Of a stretch of DNA of 58,542 bases, positions 29,991 through 42,378 are shown piece after piece. This stretch comes from Bacillales bacterium UBA3620. GTDB taxonomy: Bacteria; Bacillota_I; Bacilli_A; RF39; UBA660. Every line of letters starts with the position of its first letter. The first letter of the stretch is position 1. A model generated the notes under the pieces. It had not been told where the DNA came from, made no database searches, and worked only from the letters and a program-made list of their open reading frames with translations. The position numbers and the translations under genes are program-made. The stretch spans positions 474 to 59,015 of the forward strand of contig DFLL01000017.1 of assembly GCA_002375205.1 (NCBI GenBank). Reading direction: 5' to 3'.

Positions 29991-30767
29991 TTATCTGGTG
30001 TTGGTAAAATCTTCTGGCATAGTACCGCCTAATCTTTTAATACTATTTCTTACTTCTTTACCAACTTCATAATGAACAGAATTTGCAGTATATTCATTAT
30101 CCACATTATCTCTTTTTAATTTAGCATCTGTTTGAGCTATTCTAAATATATTATCCGCAAGTTCTTCACTCCCCATATTATCTAATATATCTTCTCTATA
30201 TCTTAATTTCTTTCTTTTGAAAATATCATCTGCTGTTTCACCATTATAAAGTCCTTTGTATCCAGTATTATGAAATCTAGCCAAATCTTTTACTCCACTT
30301 TTTACTGCCGTTTGATTCAAATTATAATTACCTTTTCTTGCTTGATTTCTTCTATATAATCTTTTTTCATTTTCAGTTAGATTATTATATTCTAATTCAG
30401 ATAGTTCCTGCTTTCTTGTTTGGATGGCAAAATAAGTTTGACCTAAAGCTATTATTTCTTTTTGAGGATTTCCATTCATTACAATTAAATAGCATGCATA
30501 TCTAGATAGTTTATAATCTATAATTTTTCTTGTTGTTTTAGATCCTATATCAACCATTTTGCGGTACAACGCAAAATGGTCATCAATATTATATTTGCTT
30601 TCTTTACATGCTGATATAGCTCTTACAATTAAATCATTTATACTTCTCCACTGATTGTATCCTAAAATACTTTGTAATTCTCTTGCTAACCAATACTCAT
30701 TACCTAATTCATCTATATGTTTTATATCTTCAAATATTTTTTCTGTGTATTCTTTTATTTCATTCAT
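29991..30767 (-). CDS. dinD: DNA damage-inducible protein D (DinD family)
   Basis: FEDIKHIDELGNEYWLARELQSILGY.QWRS....I.RAI.ACK.S......HF....KMV.IGS...R.I.DYKLSRYACYLI.MNG.P.K..IA.GQTYFAIQTRKQE is the DinD signature. Confidence 0.85.
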   Translation of the reverse strand: MNEIKEYTEKIFEDIKHIDELGNEYWLARELQSILGYNQWRSINDLIVRAISACKESKYNIDDHFALYRKMVDIGSKTTRKIIDYKLSRYACYLIVMNGNPQKEIIALGQTYFAIQTRKQELSELEYNNLTENEKRLYRRNQARKGNYNLNQTAVKSGVKDLARFHNTGYKGLYNGETADDIFKRKKLRYREDILDNMGSEELADNIFRIAQTDAKLKRDNVDNEYTANSVHYEVGKEVRNSIKRLGGTMPEDFTNTR

Positions 30768-30783
30768 TTTATCATCTTCCTTT

Positions 30784-31255
30784 CTACGGACTACAAGTCT
30801 CTATTTTTAATTTACTATTTTTAATTTTAAACATAATACTCCCATCTTGATCTGTTCTATATATTTTACTGTTTTTTAAATTATCTAATACTTCTTTATT
30901 TGGATGACCATATCTATTATTTTTACCTACTGATATCATTGAATATTTTTGATCTATTTCAAAGTTGAACTCTTCACTACTACTTGTCTTACTTCTACGA
31001 TGTTCTTCTTTTAAAACATCAATATCTGGTAAATTATACTCATTAATAATTTTCTGTAATACTTGATGCATCTACCATAAACAAAAATTTATATCAATCA
31101 AGTTCGATATAAATAACATTACTACTATCATTTTCATGATCATATTCTTTAGTTTGTAGGAAGTATAATTTGTTCTTATCAATATTTAATTCTTTAATAC
31201 TTCAGTAATATTTAATATTCATTTTATCTAACACTTTGATTAATTCTTTCTCAAA
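30784..31255 (-). pseudogene. comEC: decayed 3' remnant of comEC/rec2 (metallo-beta-lactamase domain only)
   Basis: The 95-aa ORF ends ...DVLKEEHRRSKTSSS..F....Q.YSMISVGKNNRYGHPNKEVLDNLK.SKIYRTDQDGSI, matching the ComEC C-terminus (LKV.HHGSKTSSS ... SVG.NNRYGHP ... YRTDQ.G). Upstream, a different frame reads ...HENDSSNVIYIELD*YKFLFMVDA, matching ComEC NNNSLVL....FLFTGDA. That frame carries two in-frame TGA codons (31202-31204 and 31094-31096) and a frameshift. The membrane (competence) domain is absent. Confidence 0.7.
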
Positions 31256-31349: not shown

Positions 31350-31383
31350 TCAAAAAATTAATAAGAGGGTTATCCCTCTTATT
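31350..31383 (-). terminator. rho-independent terminator after the second leader peptide gene
   Basis: 10-bp perfect stem aataagaggg/ccctcttatt with loop ttat. On the minus strand it is followed by TTAATTTTTTG. Confidence 0.65.
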
Positions 31384-31384
31384 A

Positions 31385-31552
31385 TTATAAACTACAATTT
31401 TTACCTTCAATAATTCTTCTTATTGAACTGCCTAGAGCATCTCCTAAATTATAAATAGTTTCAACAACTTTATAAATAGCTCCCATCATCGCAGCACTAA
31501 TACTAGTTCCACCACTAACATTTTTCATTTCTTCTATTTTTAACTTTCTCAT
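31385..31552 (-). CDS. double-glycine-leader peptide B (55 aa), class II bacteriocin-like precursor
   Basis: Hand translation gives MRKLKIEEMKNVSGG / TSISAAMMGAIYKVVETIYNLGDALGSSIRRIIEGKNCSL. RBS is AAAAGGAG. The leader fits L(-12) E(-8) M(-7) V(-4) GG. Not in the ORF track (under 60 aa). Confidence 0.7.
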   Translation of the reverse strand: MRKLKIEEMKNVSGGTSISAAMMGAIYKVVETIYNLGDALGSSIRRIIEGKNCSL

Positions 31553-31566
31553 ATAAATCTCCTTTT

Positions 31567-31710
31567 TTAATTTCTACACGCCTCTGGATTTGAATATCCA
31601 TGAAATATACCTATTAAGAAAGTGATAACAACTCCAATAATACTTGAAACTACTACCGGAGAAGCACCTCCTTCTATTTTTTTCATTTGTTCTTTATTTA
31701 ATTTTTTCAT
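31567..31710 (-). CDS. double-glycine-leader peptide A (47 aa), class II bacteriocin-like precursor
   Basis: Hand translation gives MKKLNKEQMKKIEGG / ASPVVVSSIIGVVITFLIGIFHGYSNPEACRN. RBS is GGAGGTAAAA. The mature part is hydrophobic and contains GIFHG (GxxxG). Confidence 0.7.
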   Translation of the reverse strand: MKKLNKEQMKKIEGGASPVVVSSIIGVVITFLIGIFHGYSNPEACRN

Positions 31711-31712
31711 TT

Positions 31713-32144
31713 TTACCTCCTCATAATATAATCAATTACTCTTTTATTCTCTTTTAAAAAGTGAAGATCTAAACTTAAATTATTAATATTATATTTCAAA
31801 GGAATATCTATCTCAATATTTATTATCTGATATGTTGTACTATTATCAGTAAAAAAATTTTCATCTACCGATATAATCTTGTAATTAAATTCTCTCTTAT
31901 CAATCATCACAACATCATTAGAGGTTAAATAACTAATTTTATCTAAAGGAATATATAATCTTATATAATATTTCTCATCATCAAATTGAACTATACCTTT
32001 TACTTTATAATATAACTTATAATGAAATAGAGTCATAAACATAATTAAGGAAAGTGCTATCACTATTATTATCATTATATACATATATATTAAAGGCTCA
32101 ACCCTTCTACTAAATATAATTCCGCTACCTATATAATATTTCAT
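31713..32144 (-). CDS. small single-TM accessory protein, possibly a minimal HlyD/LcnD-like export partner
   Basis: 143 aa with one TM segment and then a beta-rich segment. Its start overlaps the ABC transporter stop (ATGA). Its stop sits in the RBS of peptide A. Assignment is by position only. Confidence 0.4.
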   Translation of the reverse strand: MKYYIGSGIIFSRRVEPLIYMYIMIIIVIALSLIMFMTLFHYKLYYKVKGIVQFDDEKYYIRLYIPLDKISYLTSNDVVMIDKREFNYKIISVDENFFTDNSTTYQIINIEIDIPLKYNINNLSLDLHFLKENKRVIDYIMRR

Positions 32145-34219
32145 ATATCCCCCCTTACATAATTTTTAGCTGCATTTTTATCAATTACAATCATTCTATT
32201 ATATAAATCCATATTATCTTTCCGATGAGAAATAATAATAAAAGTCTTATCCTTATATTCATTAAAAATATTTTGAATAATCTTCCTTTCCAAATTAACA
32301 TCAATTTCATTTAAACCTTCATCAATCATAATAATATTACCATTTTTAAGTAGACCTCTAGCTAAGACTATTCTCTGCCTTTGACCTCCTGATAAATTTA
32401 CTCCATTCTCTTCAAGCCTATAATCATATCCTAATAAGTTATCCCTTACAATATCATCTACATAAGTAATTTTGCATACCTTTAAAAATTCTTCCTCACT
32501 TATATTCCTATCTAACATAATATTATTTCTAATCGTTCCCGTAAAAATAGATTCACATTGTGAAATATAAGTAATATTTTTTCTTATATCACTAAGACTA
32601 TAATCATTTATATCATAATTATTTATAAATATCATATCTCGTTCAACATCAAAATACTTATATATAAGTTTTAATATAGTACTTTTGCCTACACCAGAGT
32701 CTCCCATTATAAGTACTCTATCTCTTTCATTAATATAAAAACTTATATTATCGAGTAAATTATTTTTATTATTATAAGAGTATAATAAATTTTTAATAAT
32801 TATATTTCCTTTAACTTCTAACTTATTACCATCAAATATCTCCTCCTTAACATTTAATAAATTATTAGCTCTTATAATGGAATTCTTTACATAGTGATAT
32901 TCATTCAAAATATCTACTATATTTTTTATTGGATAGATCAAATAACTAGATAAAAACGTTATAGTTAAATAATTACCCATTGTTAAAGAATTATTAAAAA
33001 TTAACCTTATACTAAAATAACTAACCATTAATAAGCCAATATCTGTTATTAAGTCTTTAAATAATTGTATTAGATTAATAACCTCATTTTTCTTATATAC
33101 AGTATTTAATAATGATGAATATAATTTAGAAAAATTTAAAATAGTAGTATCCTCAATATTAAGATTTTTTATCGTCTCATAAGAACTAACAGCTTCAATA
33201 ATGGCACTATTAGTTAAAGCACTACATTCCTGTTCCTTAATAGTACTTATCTTTATTGGATAATTAAATAACAAAAGTATCAATAAATATATAAATATAA
33301 TTAAACAAATAATAAACAAAATCTTTTTATTAATAAATGAAAAAAATATAAAGGAAATAATAAAGATAATCGTATCTAAGAAAATACCCACTATTACCTT
33401 AGAAATAAATGATTTCAAAGAGAACAAATCTGTTAATCTAGATAAAACTTCACCAGTAGTCTTATTCTTATAATAGTAATAAGGAAGTAAAATTGTTTTC
33501 GTAAAAGTACTAAGAATTATACTAATATCTAATTTCTGATTTAAAAATAGAAGAAGATAATTTCTTACATAACTAGTTACTATCTTAACAATATACAAAA
33601 TAGAGAACAATAATGTTATAATAGCAATATTACTAGTAGTACTATCTATTACGTAATCAAAAATTACCTGAGAATAAAAAGAAGTACTTGCTGAAAAAAT
33701 AGTAAAAATAAACGATAATATAAATATAAAAATAATAATATTCTTATTTTTCAATAACACATATATAATTATTTTATTTAATATTTTTTCACCAGTTAAA
33801 ACTGGAAGATTTCGATCCTTCTCAAATAGCATAATATTACCTGTAAAAGAGTTAACAAAATCAAATAATTCCATAACTACCTTTCCTTTAGAAGGATCCA
33901 TAATAATAATTTTAGTATCTTCTATTTTATATACTACAACAAAATGCATATAATTATTATTATTTATCTGAGCAATAAAAGGAGTACCAATATCCTCTAA
34001 CTTACTATCATTATCAACTTTATAAGCAAATGATTTTAAGCCAATACTTTCCGCTGCTAAACTTAGATTATAAAAATTAGTACCCTCTCTATCTGTCTTT
34101 GTCAAAACTATCAATCTATCTAATAATATATCACCTCCATAAAAACGAATAATTGATAGAAGGGCCGCCGCTCCACAATCTTTTTCTCCTTCTTGTAACA
34201 CAATTAGTCTTTTGCGCAT
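32141..34219 (-). CDS. peptidase C39 domain-containing bacteriocin-processing ABC transporter (PCAT; ComA/LagD/SunT type)
   Basis: The N-terminal C39 domain has Cys (EKDCGAAAL), His (YMHFVVVY) and Asp (IMDPSKG). It is followed by six-TM and NBD regions with GDSGVGKST, LSGGQRQR and IMIDEG. Confidence 0.9.
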   Translation of the reverse strand: MRKRLIVLQEGEKDCGAAALLSIIRFYGGDILLDRLIVLTKTDREGTNFYNLSLAAESIGLKSFAYKVDNDSKLEDIGTPFIAQINNNNYMHFVVVYKIEDTKIIIMDPSKGKVVMELFDFVNSFTGNIMLFEKDRNLPVLTGEKILNKIIIYVLLKNKNIIIFIFILSFIFTIFSASTSFYSQVIFDYVIDSTTSNIAIITLLFSILYIVKIVTSYVRNYLLLFLNQKLDISIILSTFTKTILLPYYYYKNKTTGEVLSRLTDLFSLKSFISKVIVGIFLDTIIFIISFIFFSFINKKILFIICLIIFIYLLILLLFNYPIKISTIKEQECSALTNSAIIEAVSSYETIKNLNIEDTTILNFSKLYSSLLNTVYKKNEVINLIQLFKDLITDIGLLMVSYFSIRLIFNNSLTMGNYLTITFLSSYLIYPIKNIVDILNEYHYVKNSIIRANNLLNVKEEIFDGNKLEVKGNIIIKNLLYSYNNKNNLLDNISFYINERDRVLIMGDSGVGKSTILKLIYKYFDVERDMIFINNYDINDYSLSDIRKNITYISQCESIFTGTIRNNIMLDRNISEEEFLKVCKITYVDDIVRDNLLGYDYRLEENGVNLSGGQRQRIVLARGLLKNGNIIMIDEGLNEIDVNLERKIIQNIFNEYKDKTFIIISHRKDNMDLYNRMIVIDKNAAKNYVRGDI

Positions 34220-34340
34220 TCTACCTCCTCATAATATGTATTAAACATTGAAGGTCAAATTTTAAACTGTTTTTCTAAATTTCTTAAAAAAATCATCATT
34301 TTAAAACATTTATATGTCAAATATATGTAAACAAAAAAAC

Positions 34341-35423
34341 TTAATCTATTTTTTTTAGATTAAGTTTTACTTTTTTCTTGCTATTTAAATATTCTAATTT
34401 AAAATCATTATCTGCATCAATACTATTTATATTATATATAAGTAAATACTCTTTATACTCATTAATATCTAAATATCCTCCTTTATAACCAATGCCAATA
34501 TCAGTAAAATAATTATAATACTTCATACTAGGAAAATATTCATCATTCTTGCTATTTAATACAAATTCATCTAAATCCAAACTATATTTATTCGTCTTTC
34601 CAATTATACTAACTTTTATTATAACATAACTATTATCTTTACTTATCCTATTTCTTTCGGATATATAGGAACAATTTACTTTTAAATTAAAATCCTTGGT
34701 ATTAAGTATTTCACCTTCACTTAAATCTCTATTTATTATATACCTATTAACAGGAAAAACAAATACTAAAATAATAGTTGCAATAACTAAAAATATATTA
34801 ATGATCAAAGAATTATCTTTATAATAATATGAAAATTCCCTAATTAATTTCCTACCATTCCTCTTAAAAGCGTTAGAATTAAGAACGTTATAAACTTCTA
34901 CTTCCGCACTATCCTCTTCATTCAAATTAAGCTCTTTTAAATCACTAGTAAAATTAAACTTCTTAATATCAAAGCCAAGGCCTCTTATTAACATTGGAAT
35001 AGACATAATTATTAAAATACCGTAATTAATTGTCGATATATCTCTATATAATCTAAGTTCTCTTCCCGAAACACTAGTAGACTCAAGTCCCCTAATATTA
35101 AAATATGAAATTATAAAAAGAATAGAAGAAAAAACACATAATATGATTATCCCTATATAAAATAATCTAGGTTTAGATTTATATTTCATTAAAAAATAGA
35201 TAATGGTAGAAAGAATCATTACTAAAATAAAACTAATATATATATAATAACTATTATAATTCGAAGAAATTACTTCAATTTTACCACTATAAGTAATATA
35301 ATCCCTAAAAAAATCAAATATTTTTTTAGCCATCACAGTAGAATATTCAAGCATTACAAACATTATTAAATGAATCAATCTAAAATGTCTAATTAAAAAA
35401 GCATATGGCCTTCTGAAAATCAT
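34341..35423 (-). CDS. polytopic membrane protein with a C-terminal extracytoplasmic beta-rich domain (DUF4352-like?)
   Basis: 360 aa with 4-5 TM segments. The C-terminal 130 aa or so follow the last TM. Strong RBS (TAGGAGGAA). Confidence 0.5.
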   Translation of the reverse strand: MIFRRPYAFLIRHFRLIHLIMFVMLEYSTVMAKKIFDFFRDYITYSGKIEVISSNYNSYYIYISFILVMILSTIIYFLMKYKSKPRLFYIGIIILCVFSSILFIISYFNIRGLESTSVSGRELRLYRDISTINYGILIIMSIPMLIRGLGFDIKKFNFTSDLKELNLNEEDSAEVEVYNVLNSNAFKRNGRKLIREFSYYYKDNSLIINIFLVIATIILVFVFPVNRYIINRDLSEGEILNTKDFNLKVNCSYISERNRISKDNSYVIIKVSIIGKTNKYSLDLDEFVLNSKNDEYFPSMKYYNYFTDIGIGYKGGYLDINEYKEYLLIYNINSIDADNDFKLEYLNSKKKVKLNLKKID

Positions 35424-40942: not shown

Positions 40943-40963
40943 AAAAGCACCTAAATAGTGCTT
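40943..40963 (-). terminator. terminator hairpin overlapping the sigE stop
   Basis: The minus strand reads aagcactatttaggtgctt followed by TTATTTTTAT. Confidence 0.5.
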
Positions 40964-41642
40964 ATAACTTTATAATACTAGACAATCTTTTAATAACTTT
41001 CTTCTCTATCCTTGAAATATAAGATTGAGATATTCCAAGCAAACTAGCAACTTCTTTTTGTGTCATCTCTTTTTTACCATTAAGACCATATCTAAGTTCA
41101 ATAATTTCCTTATCCCTTTTACCAAGTTTATTAACCTCTCTATACATTAAATATCTATCATTTTCATCTTCAAGGGGCTTAGTAACAATATCCCCATCAG
41201 TACCTAAAACATCCTCTAAATGAAGTTCATTTCCCTCCGAATCAAAACTAAGACTATCTTCAAAAGAAACCTCTGTTCTCTTCTTTTTTGTCTTTCTAAG
41301 ATACATTAGTATCTCATTATCAATACATCTAGAAGCATAAGTAGCAAGCTTAATATTCTTATCATTCTGATAAGTGTTAACTCCCTTAATTAAACCAATT
41401 GTTCCAATAGATACTAAATCTTCTAGATCAATCTTCGTATTTTCATACTTCTTAGCCAAAAAAACTACAAGTCTTAAATTATGTTCAATTAATTTATCTC
41501 TAGCCTTAGTGTCTCCTTTTAAAAATAAACTAACATATTTCTCCTCTTCTTCTTTTGACAATGGTTCGGGAAGAATATCCGTACTGCCAACATAAAACAA
41601 GTAATTAAGTCTTCTAATTAAACTTCTAAGTAATTTAAACAT
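40962..41642 (-). CDS. sigE: sporulation sigma factor SigE (pro-sigma-E)
   Basis: Near-colinear with B. subtilis SigE: LPEPLSKEEE, NLRLVVFLAKKYENT, EDLVSIGTIGLIKGVNTY, IKLATYASRCIDNEILMYLR, GISQSYISRIEKK. It lies immediately downstream of spoIIGA. Confidence 0.92.
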   Translation of the reverse strand: MFKLLRSLIRRLNYLFYVGSTDILPEPLSKEEEEKYVSLFLKGDTKARDKLIEHNLRLVVFLAKKYENTKIDLEDLVSIGTIGLIKGVNTYQNDKNIKLATYASRCIDNEILMYLRKTKKKRTEVSFEDSLSFDSEGNELHLEDVLGTDGDIVTKPLEDENDRYLMYREVNKLGKRDKEIIELRYGLNGKKEMTQKEVASLLGISQSYISRIEKKVIKRLSSIIKL

Positions 41643-41643
41643 A

Positions 41644-42378
41644 TTATTCCCCTTTCATAACATCTTTATGCAATATAACATCTACTCCATCAATAAACCT
41701 AATATTATCAGAAAACGCTACTAGCACATTCCTAACAACATTATTATCAACTACTATATATTTAGGTTTAACACACTTAAGTAACCCATCACCGGAAACA
41801 GTATTATAAGGAACTAATAAGAATCTATCATCCCTTTCATATTTCTTATTAACAATAATAATAGGCCTATGCTTATATATATCATATAAATTATTTCCCG
41901 TATCCAAAAAACCCATTAGAGAAATATTATCTTTATCAAAGTATATGTCTACTTGATAATAATTATTATAATTATTTTTAAGTTTACTCATTTCTTTGCA
42001 ATATAAGATAGTAACTTCTCCCCCTATAACAATAATAACCAAATAATAAATAATACTATTATCAATCTTAATATTAAATAAATACAGTAGACCTCCAAGT
42101 ATTACACTAACGATATACATATAAAAAATATTCTTAATCGTATATTTAATATTTTTATATCCAAAGCATACTATACACATAACAATAATACTAAATATCT
42201 CAATAGCAATTTTATCAATATTAAAAAGTAAAAGTAATGAAGAAATACCTCCTATTAAACTCGATAAAATAATTCTAATAGTATTTGTTCTCCGCTTAAG
42301 GATATAACTAACTCCCATTATAATAATACCATCAATAACCATATTAAAAAGAAAAAATAAATCTATATACATTTTCAT
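41644..42378 (-). CDS. spoIIGA: sigma-E processing peptidase SpoIIGA
   Basis: Five N-terminal TM segments (MKMYIDLFFLFNMVIDG...) and the aspartic protease motif GFLDTGNNLYD. In the spoIIGA-sigE arrangement. Confidence 0.9.
   Translation of the reverse strand: MKMYIDLFFLFNMVIDGIIIMGVSYILKRRTNTIRIILSSLIGGISSLLLLFNIDKIAIEIFSIIVMCIVCFGYKNIKYTIKNIFYMYIVSVILGGLLYLFNIKIDNSIIYYLVIIVIGGEVTILYCKEMSKLKNNYNNYYQVDIYFDKDNISLMGFLDTGNNLYDIYKHRPIIIVNKKYERDDRFLLVPYNTVSGDGLLKCVKPKYIVVDNNVVRNVLVAFSDNIRFIDGVDVILHKDVMKGE

What the first reader, a model, noticed from the sequence alone, without database searches (positions are those of the whole stretch)
31385..34219. Compact double-glycine peptide export locus: PCAT transporter, 143-aa accessory protein and two unannotated leader peptides
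Downstream of a C39-peptidase ABC transporter with an intact Cys/His/Asp triad lies a translationally coupled 143-aa single-TM protein. After that I could hand-translate two small ORFs that the ORF track misses:
- MKKLNKEQMKKIEGG-ASPVVVSSIIGVVITFLIGIFHGYSNPEACRN
- MRKLKIEEMKNVSGG-TSISAAMMGAIYKVVETIYNLGDALGSSIRRIIEGKNCSL

Both have strong RBSs, canonical GG leaders (hydrophobic residues at -4, -7 and -12) and a shared terminator.

The arrangement looks like a two-peptide (class IIb-like) bacteriocin or a peptide pheromone pair, with three unusual points:
- The accessory protein is about a third the size of LcnD/ComB-type partners.
- No small multi-TM immunity gene follows the peptides.
- No histidine kinase or response regulator is nearby.
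Basis: partly seen in the sequence, partly recalled or inferred. Interest (0 to 1): 0.7.

Follow-up and report, generated by a model that had tools for sequence, protein, structure and literature searches.

The report
Conserved two-peptide export cassette, mini accessory
This is a real four-gene operon, found in many uncultured low-GC gut Bacilli, in which a leader-cleaving ABC exporter and a previously undescribed ~140-residue partner protein sit next to two small secreted peptides that look like a two-peptide bacteriocin, but with no immunity gene.

Summary
On the minus strand, 34219 to 31359, lies one operon: a 692-aa C39-peptidase ABC exporter (PCAT), a 143-aa single-TM protein whose start overlaps the PCAT stop (ATGA), two double-glycine-leader peptides (47 and 55 aa), then a strong terminator.

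The same four-gene layout recurs in all 19 distinct homologous loci examined, even where the 143-aa protein is only 22-25% identical. It often lies directly upstream of rpsU-yqeY.

- **Peptides.** Both are conserved and under purifying selection (dN/dS about 0.08). Each has a GxxxG motif and exactly one invariant Cys near the C-terminus. Alpha passes NCBIfam's class IIb lactobin A/cerein 7B model. Beta belongs to an unnamed family of at least 269 clusters.
- **143-aa protein.** It defines an unannotated family (307 representative clusters, no Pfam). The confident AlphaFold model is a TM helix plus a six-stranded beta-barrel. The barrel weakly resembles that of membrane-fusion (adaptor) proteins, with no hairpin or lipoyl domain.
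- **Missing parts.** No immunity gene, kinase or regulator belongs to the cassette.

Best reading: a class IIb-like two-peptide export system with a minimal adaptor. Whether the peptides are antimicrobial is untested. I rate it a new variant of a known kind, of moderate interest.

The parts
34220..34340 (-). Intergenic leader/promoter region upstream of the PCAT. It holds candidate -35/-10 pairs (TTGACA-17-GATGAT and TTGACC-16-TATTAT) and the RBS GAGGAGG 4 nt before the ATG.
   Evidence: Promoter-like matches are not above chance in this AT-rich DNA (56 found vs 44.7 +/- 6.0 expected), so the promoter assignment is tentative.
32141..34219 (-). Peptidase-containing ABC transporter (PCAT), 692 aa: an N-terminal C39 peptidase with intact Gln/Cys/His/Asp, six-TM ABC membrane domain and a nucleotide-binding domain.
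   Evidence: Pfam C39, ABC_membrane and ABC_tran. Best NCBIfam hit TIGR01193 at 387 bits, below its 523.85 cut-off; second NF045998 (mycoplasma Mbov_0121 family) at 308 bits, below 500. Full-length alignment to PCAT1 4RY2 (E 5.8e-96) and ComA 8HF4 (E 5.7e-83) with catalytic and ATPase motifs conserved.
31713..32144 (-). 143-aa accessory protein, translationally coupled to the PCAT (ATGA overlap): a short N-terminal tail, one TM helix (about residues 17-39) and a roughly 100-residue six-stranded beta-barrel with a short helix. It has no Cys. Its last two Arg codons (AGG AGG) form the RBS of the alpha gene.
   Evidence: Family of 32 close clusters and 307 representative clusters at E<=1e-3, nearly all 135-155 aa. 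No Pfam family. Only weak hits to NCBIfam NF045999 MAG1140 family (E 0.057 here; 7/49 members, best 4e-4). AlphaFold2 pLDDT 89.7, pTM 0.70. Foldseek: no hit at E<=1e-3, but about 23 of the top 50 are membrane-fusion/adaptor proteins.
31567..31710 (-). Alpha precursor, 47 aa: a 15-aa GG leader plus a 32-aa very hydrophobic mature peptide, ASPVVVSSIIGVVITFLIGIFHGYSNPEACRN. Predicted 3360.9 Da, pI 6.8. Invariant motif G-x3-G-[YF]-x-[NR]-P-x2-C.
   Evidence: It starts 2 nt after the accessory stop codon.
31385..31552 (-). Beta precursor, 55 aa: a 15-aa GG leader plus a 40-aa mature peptide, TSISAAMMGAIYKVVETIYNLGDALGSSIRRIIEGKNCSL. Predicted 4246.9 Da, pI 7.8. Invariant G-x3-G-[ST]-x-I and one Cys two residues from the C-terminus in the window copy (0-3 residues across the family).
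   Evidence: No curated family; at least 269 clusters at 90% identity in public data, unnamed apart from one listed as a hypothetical protein.
31359..31384 (-). Intrinsic terminator directly after the beta stop codon: an 11-bp stem, 4-nt loop, then ATTTTTTGAT.
   Evidence: 2 terminator-like sites vs 0.4 expected.: -18.2 kcal/mol, z = -4.43, 0/200 shuffles as stable.

Best explanation
This is a self-contained double-glycine peptide export operon of a spore-forming, roughly 25% GC, uncultured gut Bacilli lineage.

**Proposed mechanism**
1. The four genes are transcribed together, from upstream of the PCAT to the terminator after beta (inferred).
2. The PCAT's C39 domain cuts the 15-residue leaders after Gly-Gly. 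The ABC core then exports the 32-aa alpha and 40-aa beta peptides (inferred from strong homology to PCAT1/ComA and intact catalytic motifs).
3. The 143-aa protein is made in fixed ratio with the PCAT through start/stop overlap. It sits beside the PCAT in the membrane through its single TM helix and presents a small six-stranded beta-barrel.
4. I read it as a minimal adaptor, equivalent to the TM anchor plus beta-barrel of LcnD/ComB/HlyD-type membrane-fusion proteins. It lacks the lipoyl and coiled-coil hairpin parts, which serve to reach an outer-membrane channel (inferred from weak fold resemblance and gene coupling).
5. Outside the cell, the hydrophobic alpha helix and the beta peptide (predicted helical) pair through their GxxxG motifs. 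They may be locked by a disulfide between their single C-terminal cysteines, and they act on membranes as a class IIb-type two-peptide bacteriocin (inferred; activity untested).
6. Self-protection is not encoded in the cassette. It must come from elsewhere, from absence of the target receptor, or from the 143-aa protein itself.
For: **Architecture and motifs**
- Gene layout and signals.

**The cassette recurs**
- It is invariant in 19 distinct loci.
- It keeps the PCAT/accessory overlap (4-10 nt in most loci; up to 38 nt as my script called the start in L011, and adjacent without overlap in L014).
- Peptide sizes stay at 45-49 and 53-56 aa.
- This holds even where the accessory is only 22-25% identical.

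**Peptides behave like class IIb components**
- Alpha is above the cut-off for the class IIb family TIGR03949, and 13/13 homologues hit it.
- GxxxG and the single Cys are invariant in both peptides.
- Alpha and beta are unrelated outside the leader.
- Selection on the peptides is purifying, with dN/dS 0.07-0.08.

**Accessory protein**
- The model is confident: pLDDT 89.7, a TM helix plus six strands and a short helix.
- BesA (TMq about 0.5), MacA, Spr0693, MexA, AcrA, TMexC and ZneB make up about 23 of the top 50 Foldseek hits.

**Background**
- Gram-positive PCATs work alone or with one accessory protein (PMC7018657).
- Small PCAT accessories exist, such as PedC (PMC4919988, PMC5465099).
Against: - **No immunity gene.** In at least nine loci rpsU follows directly; the beta-to-rpsU gaps I measured are 95-235 nt.
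- **Weak charge.** The mature peptides have median net charge +1, and pI 6.8 and 7.8 in the window. Typical class II bacteriocins are strongly cationic.
- **Housekeeping-like behaviour.** Divergence tracks S21/YqeY and synteny persists down to 40-42% identity of those proteins. Classical bacteriocin loci are usually patchy and mobile.
- **Weak fold evidence.** No Foldseek hit reaches E<=1e-3. The top hit is a PilZ-type barrel and other small barrels also appear.
- **No sequence link** to HlyD/LcnD or any solved structure.
- **Topology unresolved.** Membrane orientation of the 143-aa protein is ambiguous by flanking charges: K+R 2.56 on the N side vs 2.14 on the C side.
- **Mature peptides are unlike known ones.** They match no solved bacteriocin beyond the leader.
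Confidence: 0.55

Rival explanations
1. The peptide pair is not a weapon. It is a lineage-conserved, self-directed secreted or membrane factor: a signal pair, a developmental or sporulation-related factor, or a small heterodimeric membrane complex. The PCAT is then simply its dedicated maturation and export route.
For: - The cassette keeps its place upstream of rpsU-yqeY across deep divergence and diverges in step with those genes.
- No immunity gene is present in any locus.
- Mature peptides are more conserved than leaders between strains: beta is identical and alpha has 3 conservative changes, with dN/dS about 0.08.
- Net charge is weak.
- No relative was found on viral contigs.
- The hosts carry sporulation genes: spoIIGA and a sigma factor in the window, and spoVIF next to the cassette in L014/L016/L018.
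- PCATs with non-antagonistic roles are known, for example competence and quorum-sensing pheromones (PMC7018657) and HetC in Nostoc differentiation (PMC10986499).
Against: - No sensor kinase, response regulator or Rgg/PlcR-type receptor lies in or next to the cassette (and the gene tables).
- A 32-aa peptide with a roughly 22-residue hydrophobic core is unlike known diffusible pheromones.
- The GxxxG pair and the hit to the class IIb family model point to membrane-active bacteriocins.
- Whether every genome of the clade carries the cassette was not measured.
Confidence: 0.22
2. The 143-aa protein is not a transport adaptor. It is the immunity protein, or a peptide-specific chaperone or receptor, for the alpha/beta pair, and sits between transporter and peptides only for co-expression.
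For: - It is the only cassette gene without an assigned role, and no other immunity candidate exists.
- Between conspecific strains, the divergent recombination block covers exactly the 3' half of this gene plus the alpha gene: 78-84% nt identity against 99-100% in the PCAT and flanks. The accessory ectodomain and alpha therefore travel together.
- 16 of the 21 amino-acid differences lie in residues 84-141 (alignment).
Against: - The start/stop overlap is with the PCAT, not with the peptides.
- As far as I know, immunity proteins of two-peptide bacteriocins usually follow the structural genes and are multi-TM or CAAX-protease-like.
- The fold resembles an adaptor beta-barrel.
- The alleles differ mostly at synonymous sites and the alpha changes are conservative, so co-divergence may only reflect adjacency.
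- Weak similarity to the mycoplasma MAG1140 family hints at a transporter-linked role. That family's NCBIfam model number (NF045999) directly follows the mycoplasma PCAT model (NF045998), but their adjacency in genomes was not checked.
Confidence: 0.18
3. The two small ORFs are chance ORFs in AT-rich DNA and only the PCAT is real.
For: Nothing specific. AT-rich DNA yields many short ORFs.
Against: - The peptides are conserved in 19 loci, with invariant GG, GxxxG, Pro and Cys columns.
- dN/dS is 0.07-0.08 despite dS of 0.3-1.0.
- Both have strong RBSs.
- Beta has at least 269 homologous clusters.
Confidence: 0.01

Closest known systems
Class IIb (two-peptide) bacteriocin loci of lactic acid bacteria and Bacillus (lactococcin G, plantaricin EF/JK, lactacin F/lactobin A, cerein 7B), exported by PCATs such as LagD/PlnG
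   Same: - Two adjacent genes encode 30-40-residue peptides with 15-residue double-glycine leaders.
- Both peptides carry GxxxG motifs, and the two are unrelated in sequence outside the leader.
- A dedicated PCAT lies in the same operon.
- Alpha passes the TIGR03949 model.
   Different: - There is no immunity gene after the peptides.
- The peptides are only weakly cationic.
- Each has one invariant C-terminal Cys. I know of no characterised class IIb pair with an interchain disulfide, and a literature search found none.
- The locus behaves as chromosomal and vertically inherited, not strain-variable.
- Beta and the mature part of alpha match no curated or structurally solved bacteriocin.
LcnD / ComB / BlpB / PlnH / CvaA / HlyD-type accessory (membrane-fusion) proteins of PCAT and type I secretion systems
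   Same: The gene lies immediately after and is coupled to the ABC exporter. The protein has an N-terminal tail plus a single TM anchor, and its predicted ectodomain fold resembles the adaptor beta-barrel.
   Different: It is about 143 aa against roughly 450 aa. It has no coiled-coil hairpin and no lipoyl domain in the model. It has no Pfam HlyD hit and no sequence similarity to solved adaptors. The fold match is sub-significant.
PedC/PapC (pediocin PA-1) and the bactofencin accessory protein: small, membrane-anchored PCAT accessories
   Same: It is a small, N-terminally anchored protein (PedC is about 174 aa by my recollection) encoded next to a PCAT. The cargo peptides contain cysteines (PMC4919988, PMC5465099).
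   Different: PedC is a putative thiol-disulfide oxidoreductase with a CxxC motif. The window protein has no cysteine, about half of the family have none, and the predicted fold is a beta-barrel, not thioredoxin-like.
NCBIfam NF045998 (Mbov_0121 family PCAT) and NF045999 (MAG1140 family protein, 126-position model) of Mycoplasmopsis
   Same: A PCAT model paired with a small protein model of similar length. The window PCAT's second-best NCBIfam hit is NF045998. The accessory and 7/49 family members give weak end-to-end hits to NF045999.
   Different: All scores are far below the curated cut-offs (308 vs 500 bits; 13.6 vs 35 bits). I found no literature on function. Gene adjacency and GG-peptide cargo in mycoplasmas could not be checked here.
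PCAT1 of Clostridium (Hungateiclostridium) thermocellum with its CtA substrate
   Same: It is the closest solved structure to the transporter (E 5.8e-96, full length). The catalytic Cys/His/Asp and ATPase motifs align.
   Different: As far as I know, PCAT1 works without an accessory protein and has a single, longer substrate. Here there is a coupled accessory and two short peptides.

Membership tests
Peptidase-containing ABC transporter (PCAT / AMS, bacteriocin-type ABC exporter) | N-terminal C39 peptidase domain followed by a six-TM ABC membrane domain and a nucleotide-binding domain in one polypeptide | tested here: met
   Pfam PF03412 1e-32, PF00664 1.2e-28, PF00005 5.9e-23. Full-length alignment to PCAT1 and ComA.
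Peptidase-containing ABC transporter (PCAT / AMS, bacteriocin-type ABC exporter) | Catalytic Cys/His/Asp (plus oxyanion Gln) in the C39 domain, which distinguishes active PCATs from C39-like-domain exporters such as HlyB | tested here: met
   Q9, C15 (DCGAA), H92 (HFVVVY) and D108 (MDPSKG) align with the corresponding PCAT1 residues. Assigning those PCAT1 residues as catalytic rests on my own knowledge.
Peptidase-containing ABC transporter (PCAT / AMS, bacteriocin-type ABC exporter) | Score above the curated cut-off of a named NCBIfam PCAT family | tested here: not met
   TIGR01193 at 387.3 bits against a 523.85 cut-off; NF045998 at 308.4 against 500. This is a divergent PCAT, not a member of those specific subfamilies.
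Double-glycine leader peptides | A 14-20-residue leader ending Gly-Gly, with hydrophobic residues at -4, -7 and -12 and an acidic residue near -8/-9, encoded next to a PCAT | tested here: met
   Sequences. Leader models TIGR01847 and NF047798 give weak hits. GG is invariant in alignments A3 and A4. One further homologue not included in those alignments (L022) has AG.
Double-glycine leader peptides | Cleavage after GG by the cognate PCAT | not testable with these tools
   Needs mass spectrometry or an in vitro C39 assay.
Class IIb two-peptide bacteriocins | Two different peptides encoded by adjacent genes in one operon, each with a GG leader and GxxxG-type helix-helix motifs | tested here: met
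   (invariant G34/G38 in alpha, G37/G41 in beta); only the leaders align.
Class IIb two-peptide bacteriocins | Score above the curated cut-off of a class IIb family model | tested here: met
   Alpha scores 26.9 bits against TIGR03949 (cut-off 21.5), and 13/13 homologues match. Much of the score comes from the leader. Beta passes no model: 5/12 hit TIGR03949 weakly, best E 0.0059.
Class IIb two-peptide bacteriocins | Dedicated immunity gene next to the structural genes | tested here: not met
   The terminator follows beta directly. In at least nine loci rpsU follows directly; the measured gaps are 95-235 nt. No conserved extra ORF on either side of the four genes.
Class IIb two-peptide bacteriocins | Cationic mature peptides | tested here: inconclusive
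   Window pI is 6.8 (alpha) and 7.8 (beta). Family net charge ranges from -1 to +5, median +1.
Class IIb two-peptide bacteriocins | Antimicrobial activity that needs both peptides in about equal amounts | not testable with these tools
   Needs synthetic or purified peptides.
HlyD/LcnD/ComB membrane-fusion (periplasmic adaptor) proteins | Single N-terminal TM anchor, gene adjacent to the exporter | tested here: met
   TM helix 17-39 in the model. 4-nt overlap with the PCAT gene.
HlyD/LcnD/ComB membrane-fusion (periplasmic adaptor) proteins | Lipoyl (barrel-sandwich) domain and alpha-helical hairpin | tested here: not met
   After the TM helix the model has only six strands and short helices of 7-8 residues. 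At 143 aa there is no room for these domains.
HlyD/LcnD/ComB membrane-fusion (periplasmic adaptor) proteins | Six-stranded beta-barrel domain with one short helix | tested here: inconclusive
   The topology fits. About 23 of the top 50 Foldseek PDB hits are adaptors (BesA TMq 0.47-0.51; MacA, Spr0693 rmsd 3.3-3.8 over about 81-87 columns). But E-values are 0.06-0.6, and PilZ, riboflavin-synthase and helicase barrels also appear.
HlyD/LcnD/ComB membrane-fusion (periplasmic adaptor) proteins | Sequence-profile membership (Pfam HlyD families) | tested here: not met
   No HlyD-type Pfam hit in any of 49 family members. The family profile finds no adaptor among PDB sequences.
PedC-type thioredoxin-like bacteriocin accessory proteins | Thioredoxin fold with a CxxC motif | tested here: not met
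   No Cys in the window protein, and 49% of family members have none. The fold is a beta-barrel.
NCBIfam NF045999 MAG1140 family | HMM score above the curated cut-off (35 bits) | tested here: not met
   13.6 bits, E 0.057, though the match covers residues 20-141 against model positions 8-125 of 126. 7/49 family members hit, best E 4e-4. A possible distant relative, not a member.

The most novel reading that the evidence does not exclude
The cassette is not a bacteriocin locus. It is an ancient, vertically inherited secretion module of a whole uncultured Bacilli lineage. In this reading it exports a covalently (Cys-Cys) linked alpha/beta heterodimeric membrane peptide with a self-directed role, such as signalling, development or envelope function. 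The 143-aa family would then be a new, minimal class of ABC-exporter adaptor (TM helix plus a lone beta-barrel), possibly shared with mycoplasmas as the MAG1140 family.
Probability: 0.2. Interest if true: 0.75.

Novelty: new variant of a known kind. Interest (0 to 1): 0.5.

Why it matters
- **A new PCAT partner.** PCAT systems of Gram-positive bacteria are thought to work either alone or with a large HlyD-like accessory, or with a thioredoxin-like PedC. A conserved family of about 140-residue proteins (307 representative clusters), always fused by gene overlap to a PCAT, would be a third, minimal type of partner. It would also be a tractable model for what the adaptor's membrane-proximal barrel actually does.
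- **A new peptide family.** The alpha/beta pair is widespread in uncultured human- and animal-gut Bacilli, which have no cultured representatives to screen. The predicted sequences and masses make synthesis and activity tests immediately possible.
- **An unusual evolutionary pattern.** The lack of an immunity gene, the single invariant Cys in each peptide and the housekeeping-like inheritance raise a question: are some 'class IIb-like' loci something other than weapons?

Tried and rejected
- **Pfam and NCBIfam on the accessory and 48 relatives.** No consistent family beyond weak MAG1140 hits.
- **Family profile against PDB sequences.** Nothing.
- **Peptide profiles against PDB sequences.** Only leader-level similarity to pre-carnobacteriocin B2 and CtA.
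- **PedC-like oxidoreductase idea.** Rejected: no Cys and a different fold.
- **Internal promoter for the peptides.** A promoter-like TTGAGA-17-TATAAT inside the accessory gene (31816 to 31788) looked attractive, but it is absent from 16 other loci, so I treat it as chance.
- **The upstream 360-aa multi-TM gene (34341-35423) as immunity or a cassette member.**
  - It is conserved upstream in L001 and L019 (63% and 52% identity).
  - It is absent in L002, L013, L014, L016 and L018.
  - In the conspecific L026/L028 a TnpB-like transposase fragment lies directly upstream of the PCAT in its place.
  - I therefore do not count it as part of the core.
- **Positive-inside rule for accessory topology.** Ambiguous.
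- **Wider locus sampling.**
  - The narrower A1 scan added only four loci.
  - The viral-contig scan found none.
- **Literature.**
  - Nothing on MAG1140 or Mbov_0121 function.
  - Nothing on interchain disulfides in two-peptide bacteriocins.
  - Nothing on mini-adaptors.
  - RtgB of pneumococcus turned out to be ComB/BlpB-like, so it is not a precedent.

Full report
**1. What is there**

On the minus strand of the window, four ORFs form a compact unit.

| Gene | Coordinates | Size |
|---|---|---|
| PCAT | 34219-32141 | 692 aa |
| Accessory protein | 32144-31713 | 143 aa |
| Alpha peptide | 31710-31567 | 47 aa |
| Beta peptide | 31552-31385 | 55 aa |

- The 143-aa start overlaps the PCAT stop (ATGA).
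- Alpha starts 2 nt after the 143-aa stop. Its GAGGAGG ribosome-binding site is formed by the last two Arg codons of the 143-aa gene.
- Beta follows 14 nt later with a GGAG site.
- An 11-bp-stem terminator with a T-run sits directly after beta at 31384-31359. It folds at -18.2 kcal/mol, z = -4.4.
- Promoter-like hexamers exist in the 120-nt gap upstream of the PCAT, but such matches are not above chance in this 25% GC DNA.

**2. The transporter**

- Pfam finds Peptidase_C39, ABC_membrane and ABC_tran.
- The protein aligns end to end with PCAT1 (4RY2, E 5.8e-96) and ComA (8HF4, E 5.7e-83).
- The DCGAA cysteine, HFVV histidine, DP-KG aspartate, upstream glutamine, Walker A and B, signature motif and H-loop are all conserved.
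- It falls below the curated cut-offs of TIGR01193 and of the mycoplasma NF045998 family. It is therefore a divergent but apparently active PCAT.

**3. The peptides**

- Both have 15-residue double-glycine leaders with hydrophobic residues at -4, -7 and -12.
- Mature alpha (32 aa, 3360.9 Da, pI 6.8, GRAVY about 1) is essentially a hydrophobic helix followed by GYSNPEACRN.
- Mature beta (40 aa, 4246.9 Da, pI 7.8) is less hydrophobic and carries scattered charged residues, which reads as an amphipathic helix.
- Alpha scores above the cut-off of TIGR03949 (class IIb, lactobin A/cerein 7B family), and all 13 alpha homologues hit that model.
- Beta passes no curated model. It has at least 269 homologous clusters in public data, almost all 55 aa and unnamed.
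- Neither mature peptide resembles a structurally solved bacteriocin.
- The alpha and beta profiles align only over the leader, so these are two different peptides, as in class IIb systems.
- Invariant columns across deep divergence:
  - alpha: GG, G-x3-G, P, C;
  - beta: GG, G-x3-G, I, C.
- Every mature peptide examined (16 alpha, 16 beta) has exactly one cysteine, 0-3 residues from the C-terminus.

This pattern suggests an interchain disulfide or another Cys-dependent step. No oxidoreductase is encoded in the cassette. I found no precedent for a disulfide-linked two-peptide bacteriocin in the literature held here.

**4. The 143-aa protein**

- It has no Pfam family.
- A profile search of 1.84 billion representatives finds 307 clusters at E<=1e-3, nearly all 135-155 aa.
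- Its only link to curated knowledge is a weak, end-to-end similarity to NCBIfam NF045999, the 'MAG1140 family protein' of Mycoplasmopsis: E 0.057 here, and 7/49 family members with best E 4e-4. I found no functional literature on that family.
- With the 49-sequence alignment, AlphaFold2 gives a confident model (pLDDT 89.7, pTM 0.70). It has a TM helix at 17-39, then six strands and a short helix forming a small barrel, then a short C-terminal helix.
- Foldseek against the PDB gives no hit at E<=1e-3.
  - About 23 of the top 50 hits are membrane-fusion or periplasmic adaptor proteins: BesA (TMq about 0.5), MacA, Spr0693, MexA, AcrA, TMexC and ZneB.
  - These align over about 80-100 columns at 3.3-4.6 A.
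  - PilZ, riboflavin-synthase and helicase barrels fill the rest.
- There is no lipoyl domain, no hairpin and no cysteine, so it is neither an LcnD/ComB/HlyD member nor PedC-like.
- Membrane orientation cannot be decided from flanking charges.

I read it as a minimal adaptor of the exporter. This is an inference.

**5. Conservation**

- The same four-gene order was found in 19 distinct loci from gut and other metagenomes and MAGs.
  - The MAGs are labelled uncultured Bacilli, Bacillales, Tenericutes or Clostridium.
  - The layout is the same each time: a 659-709-aa PCAT, an overlapping 141-153-aa gene, a 45-49-aa alpha, then a 53-56-aa beta.
  - Sources.
- The pattern holds where the accessory is only 22-25% identical (L013, L014, L016; also L017, whose contig holds only the 3' part of the PCAT).
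- The only defect seen is an in-frame TAG in beta of L006. L019 has the same accessory and alpha sequences and an intact beta.
- In at least nine loci rpsU-yqeY follows beta directly. In another lineage the cassette lies after spoVIF.
- Identity of the cassette proteins falls in step with S21 and YqeY. For L013 the values are PCAT 33%, accessory 24%, alpha 37%, beta 38%, S21 40% and YqeY 42%.
- No relative occurs on viral contigs.

This looks like long vertical inheritance rather than a mobile bacteriocin island. I did not measure how complete its distribution is within the clade.

**6. Within-species mosaic**

- Conspecific contigs L026 and L028 are 99-100% identical to the window across the PCAT and the flanks.
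- Identity drops to 93-96% at the PCAT's 3' end and through the first two-thirds of the accessory gene (32392-31993, recovering to about 97-99% at 31992-31893).
- It drops to 78-84% across the 3' third of the accessory gene and alpha, and to 92-93% in beta.
- Nei-Gojobori estimates:

| Gene | dS | dN/dS |
|---|---|---|
| PCAT | 0.03 | 0.07-0.11 |
| Accessory | 0.27 | 0.27 |
| Alpha | 1.04 | 0.08 |
| Beta | 0.33 | 0.07 |

- Mature beta is identical between the strains. Mature alpha has three conservative changes. The leaders change more.
- A diverged allele of the accessory-alpha-beta segment has therefore been recombined in, while the mature peptides stay under purifying selection.
- This pattern differs from pherotype or bacteriocin diversification. 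It does show that the accessory's barrel and alpha are inherited as a unit.

**7. Context**

- No immunity-like ORF, histidine kinase, response regulator or Rgg/PlcR-type gene belongs to the cassette or lies among the scanned neighbours.
- Neighbours in the window:
  - a 360-aa multi-TM protein (upstream in some relatives but not others, so not core);
  - a YlbL-like PDZ/Lon protease;
  - BrkB;
  - a GGDEF protein;
  - spoIIGA and a sigma factor.
- Between beta and rpsU this genome has a 95-aa ORF and a Bro-N protein that other species lack.

**8. Interpretation**

- **Secure:** this is a PCAT-dependent double-glycine peptide maturation and export operon, with a conserved partner protein and two conserved cargo peptides.
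- **Most likely (about 0.55):** the cargo is a class IIb-type two-peptide, membrane-active bacteriocin, and the 143-aa protein is a minimal adaptor.
- **Rivals:**
  - a self-directed or signalling role for the pair (about 0.2);
  - the 143-aa protein as immunity protein or peptide-specific chaperone (about 0.2, and not exclusive of the main reading).
Its functional label remains unproven.

**9. Novelty and score**

- The system type is known.
- The accessory family, the beta family, the invariant single-Cys pair, the absence of immunity and the housekeeping-like inheritance make it a new variant of a known kind.
- Interest is about 0.5. It is directly testable with synthetic peptides and a four-gene expression construct.

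Noticed in passing
window 32400-31400, compared with L026/L028: There is a local mosaic between conspecific contigs. The PCAT and flanks are 99-100% nt identical, but the 3' third of the 143-aa gene plus alpha are only 78-84% identical and beta 92-93%. dS is 0.27-1.04 there against 0.03 in the PCAT, with low dN/dS. This suggests a recombined diverged allele of the accessory-alpha-beta segment.
   Followed up: partly
window 30794-30394 (5' part of the Bro-N gene at 29991-30767): A second sharply divergent block (63-88% nt identity) lies between otherwise near-identical conspecific contigs. It is inside the Bro-N domain gene that sits between the cassette and rpsU.
   Followed up: no
L026 1-130 and L028 2-268 (directly upstream of the PCAT): In conspecific strains the sequence upstream of the PCAT encodes a C-terminal fragment that reads like an IS200/IS605 TnpB zinc-ribbon end (CSVC...CNKC). 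The window has the 360-aa membrane protein gene there instead. The identification is by eye only.
   Followed up: no
L006 6604-6769: The beta gene carries an in-frame TAG right after the GG-A of the leader (…ISGGA*LTAS…). L019, with the same accessory and alpha sequences, has an intact beta. This is a pseudogene or an assembly error in that MAG.
   Followed up: partly
window 34217-34235 and 31708-31727 (minus strand): The same 14-nt string, ATTATGAGGAGGTA, precedes both the PCAT start and the alpha start. At alpha, the AGG AGG are the last two Arg codons of the accessory gene. This may explain the conserved C-terminal 'RR' in the close family.
   Followed up: no
window 30784-31071 (minus strand): A 95-aa ORF ends ...VGKNNRYGHPNKEVLDNLKNSKIYRTDQDGSIMFKI. 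By eye it resembles the C-terminal end of a ComEC/metallo-beta-lactamase-type protein, so it may be a gene remnant. Pfam gave no hit.
   Followed up: no
window 34341-35423 (minus strand): A 360-aa protein with several N-terminal TM segments and a C-terminal beta-rich part has no Pfam or NCBIfam hit. It is conserved directly upstream of the PCAT in L001 (63% identity) and L019 (52%) but is absent from other cassette loci. Function unknown.
   Followed up: partly
L024 5899-6486 and L025 5899-6504: About 1.1 kb downstream of beta, a 195-201-aa protein is made largely of Cys-rich repeats (…CKCSCDEECSCDEECNCNEKCSCDE…).
   Followed up: no
L022 4435-4578: The alpha leader ends Ala-Gly (…KKIEAG|ADP…) instead of Gly-Gly. 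It is a natural variant of the cleavage site.
   Followed up: no
window 40962-42378 (minus strand): spoIIGA (Peptidase_U4) and an adjacent sigma-70-family factor, the sigE arrangement, show that the host is or descends from an endospore former. Some related MAGs are nevertheless labelled Tenericutes.
   Followed up: no
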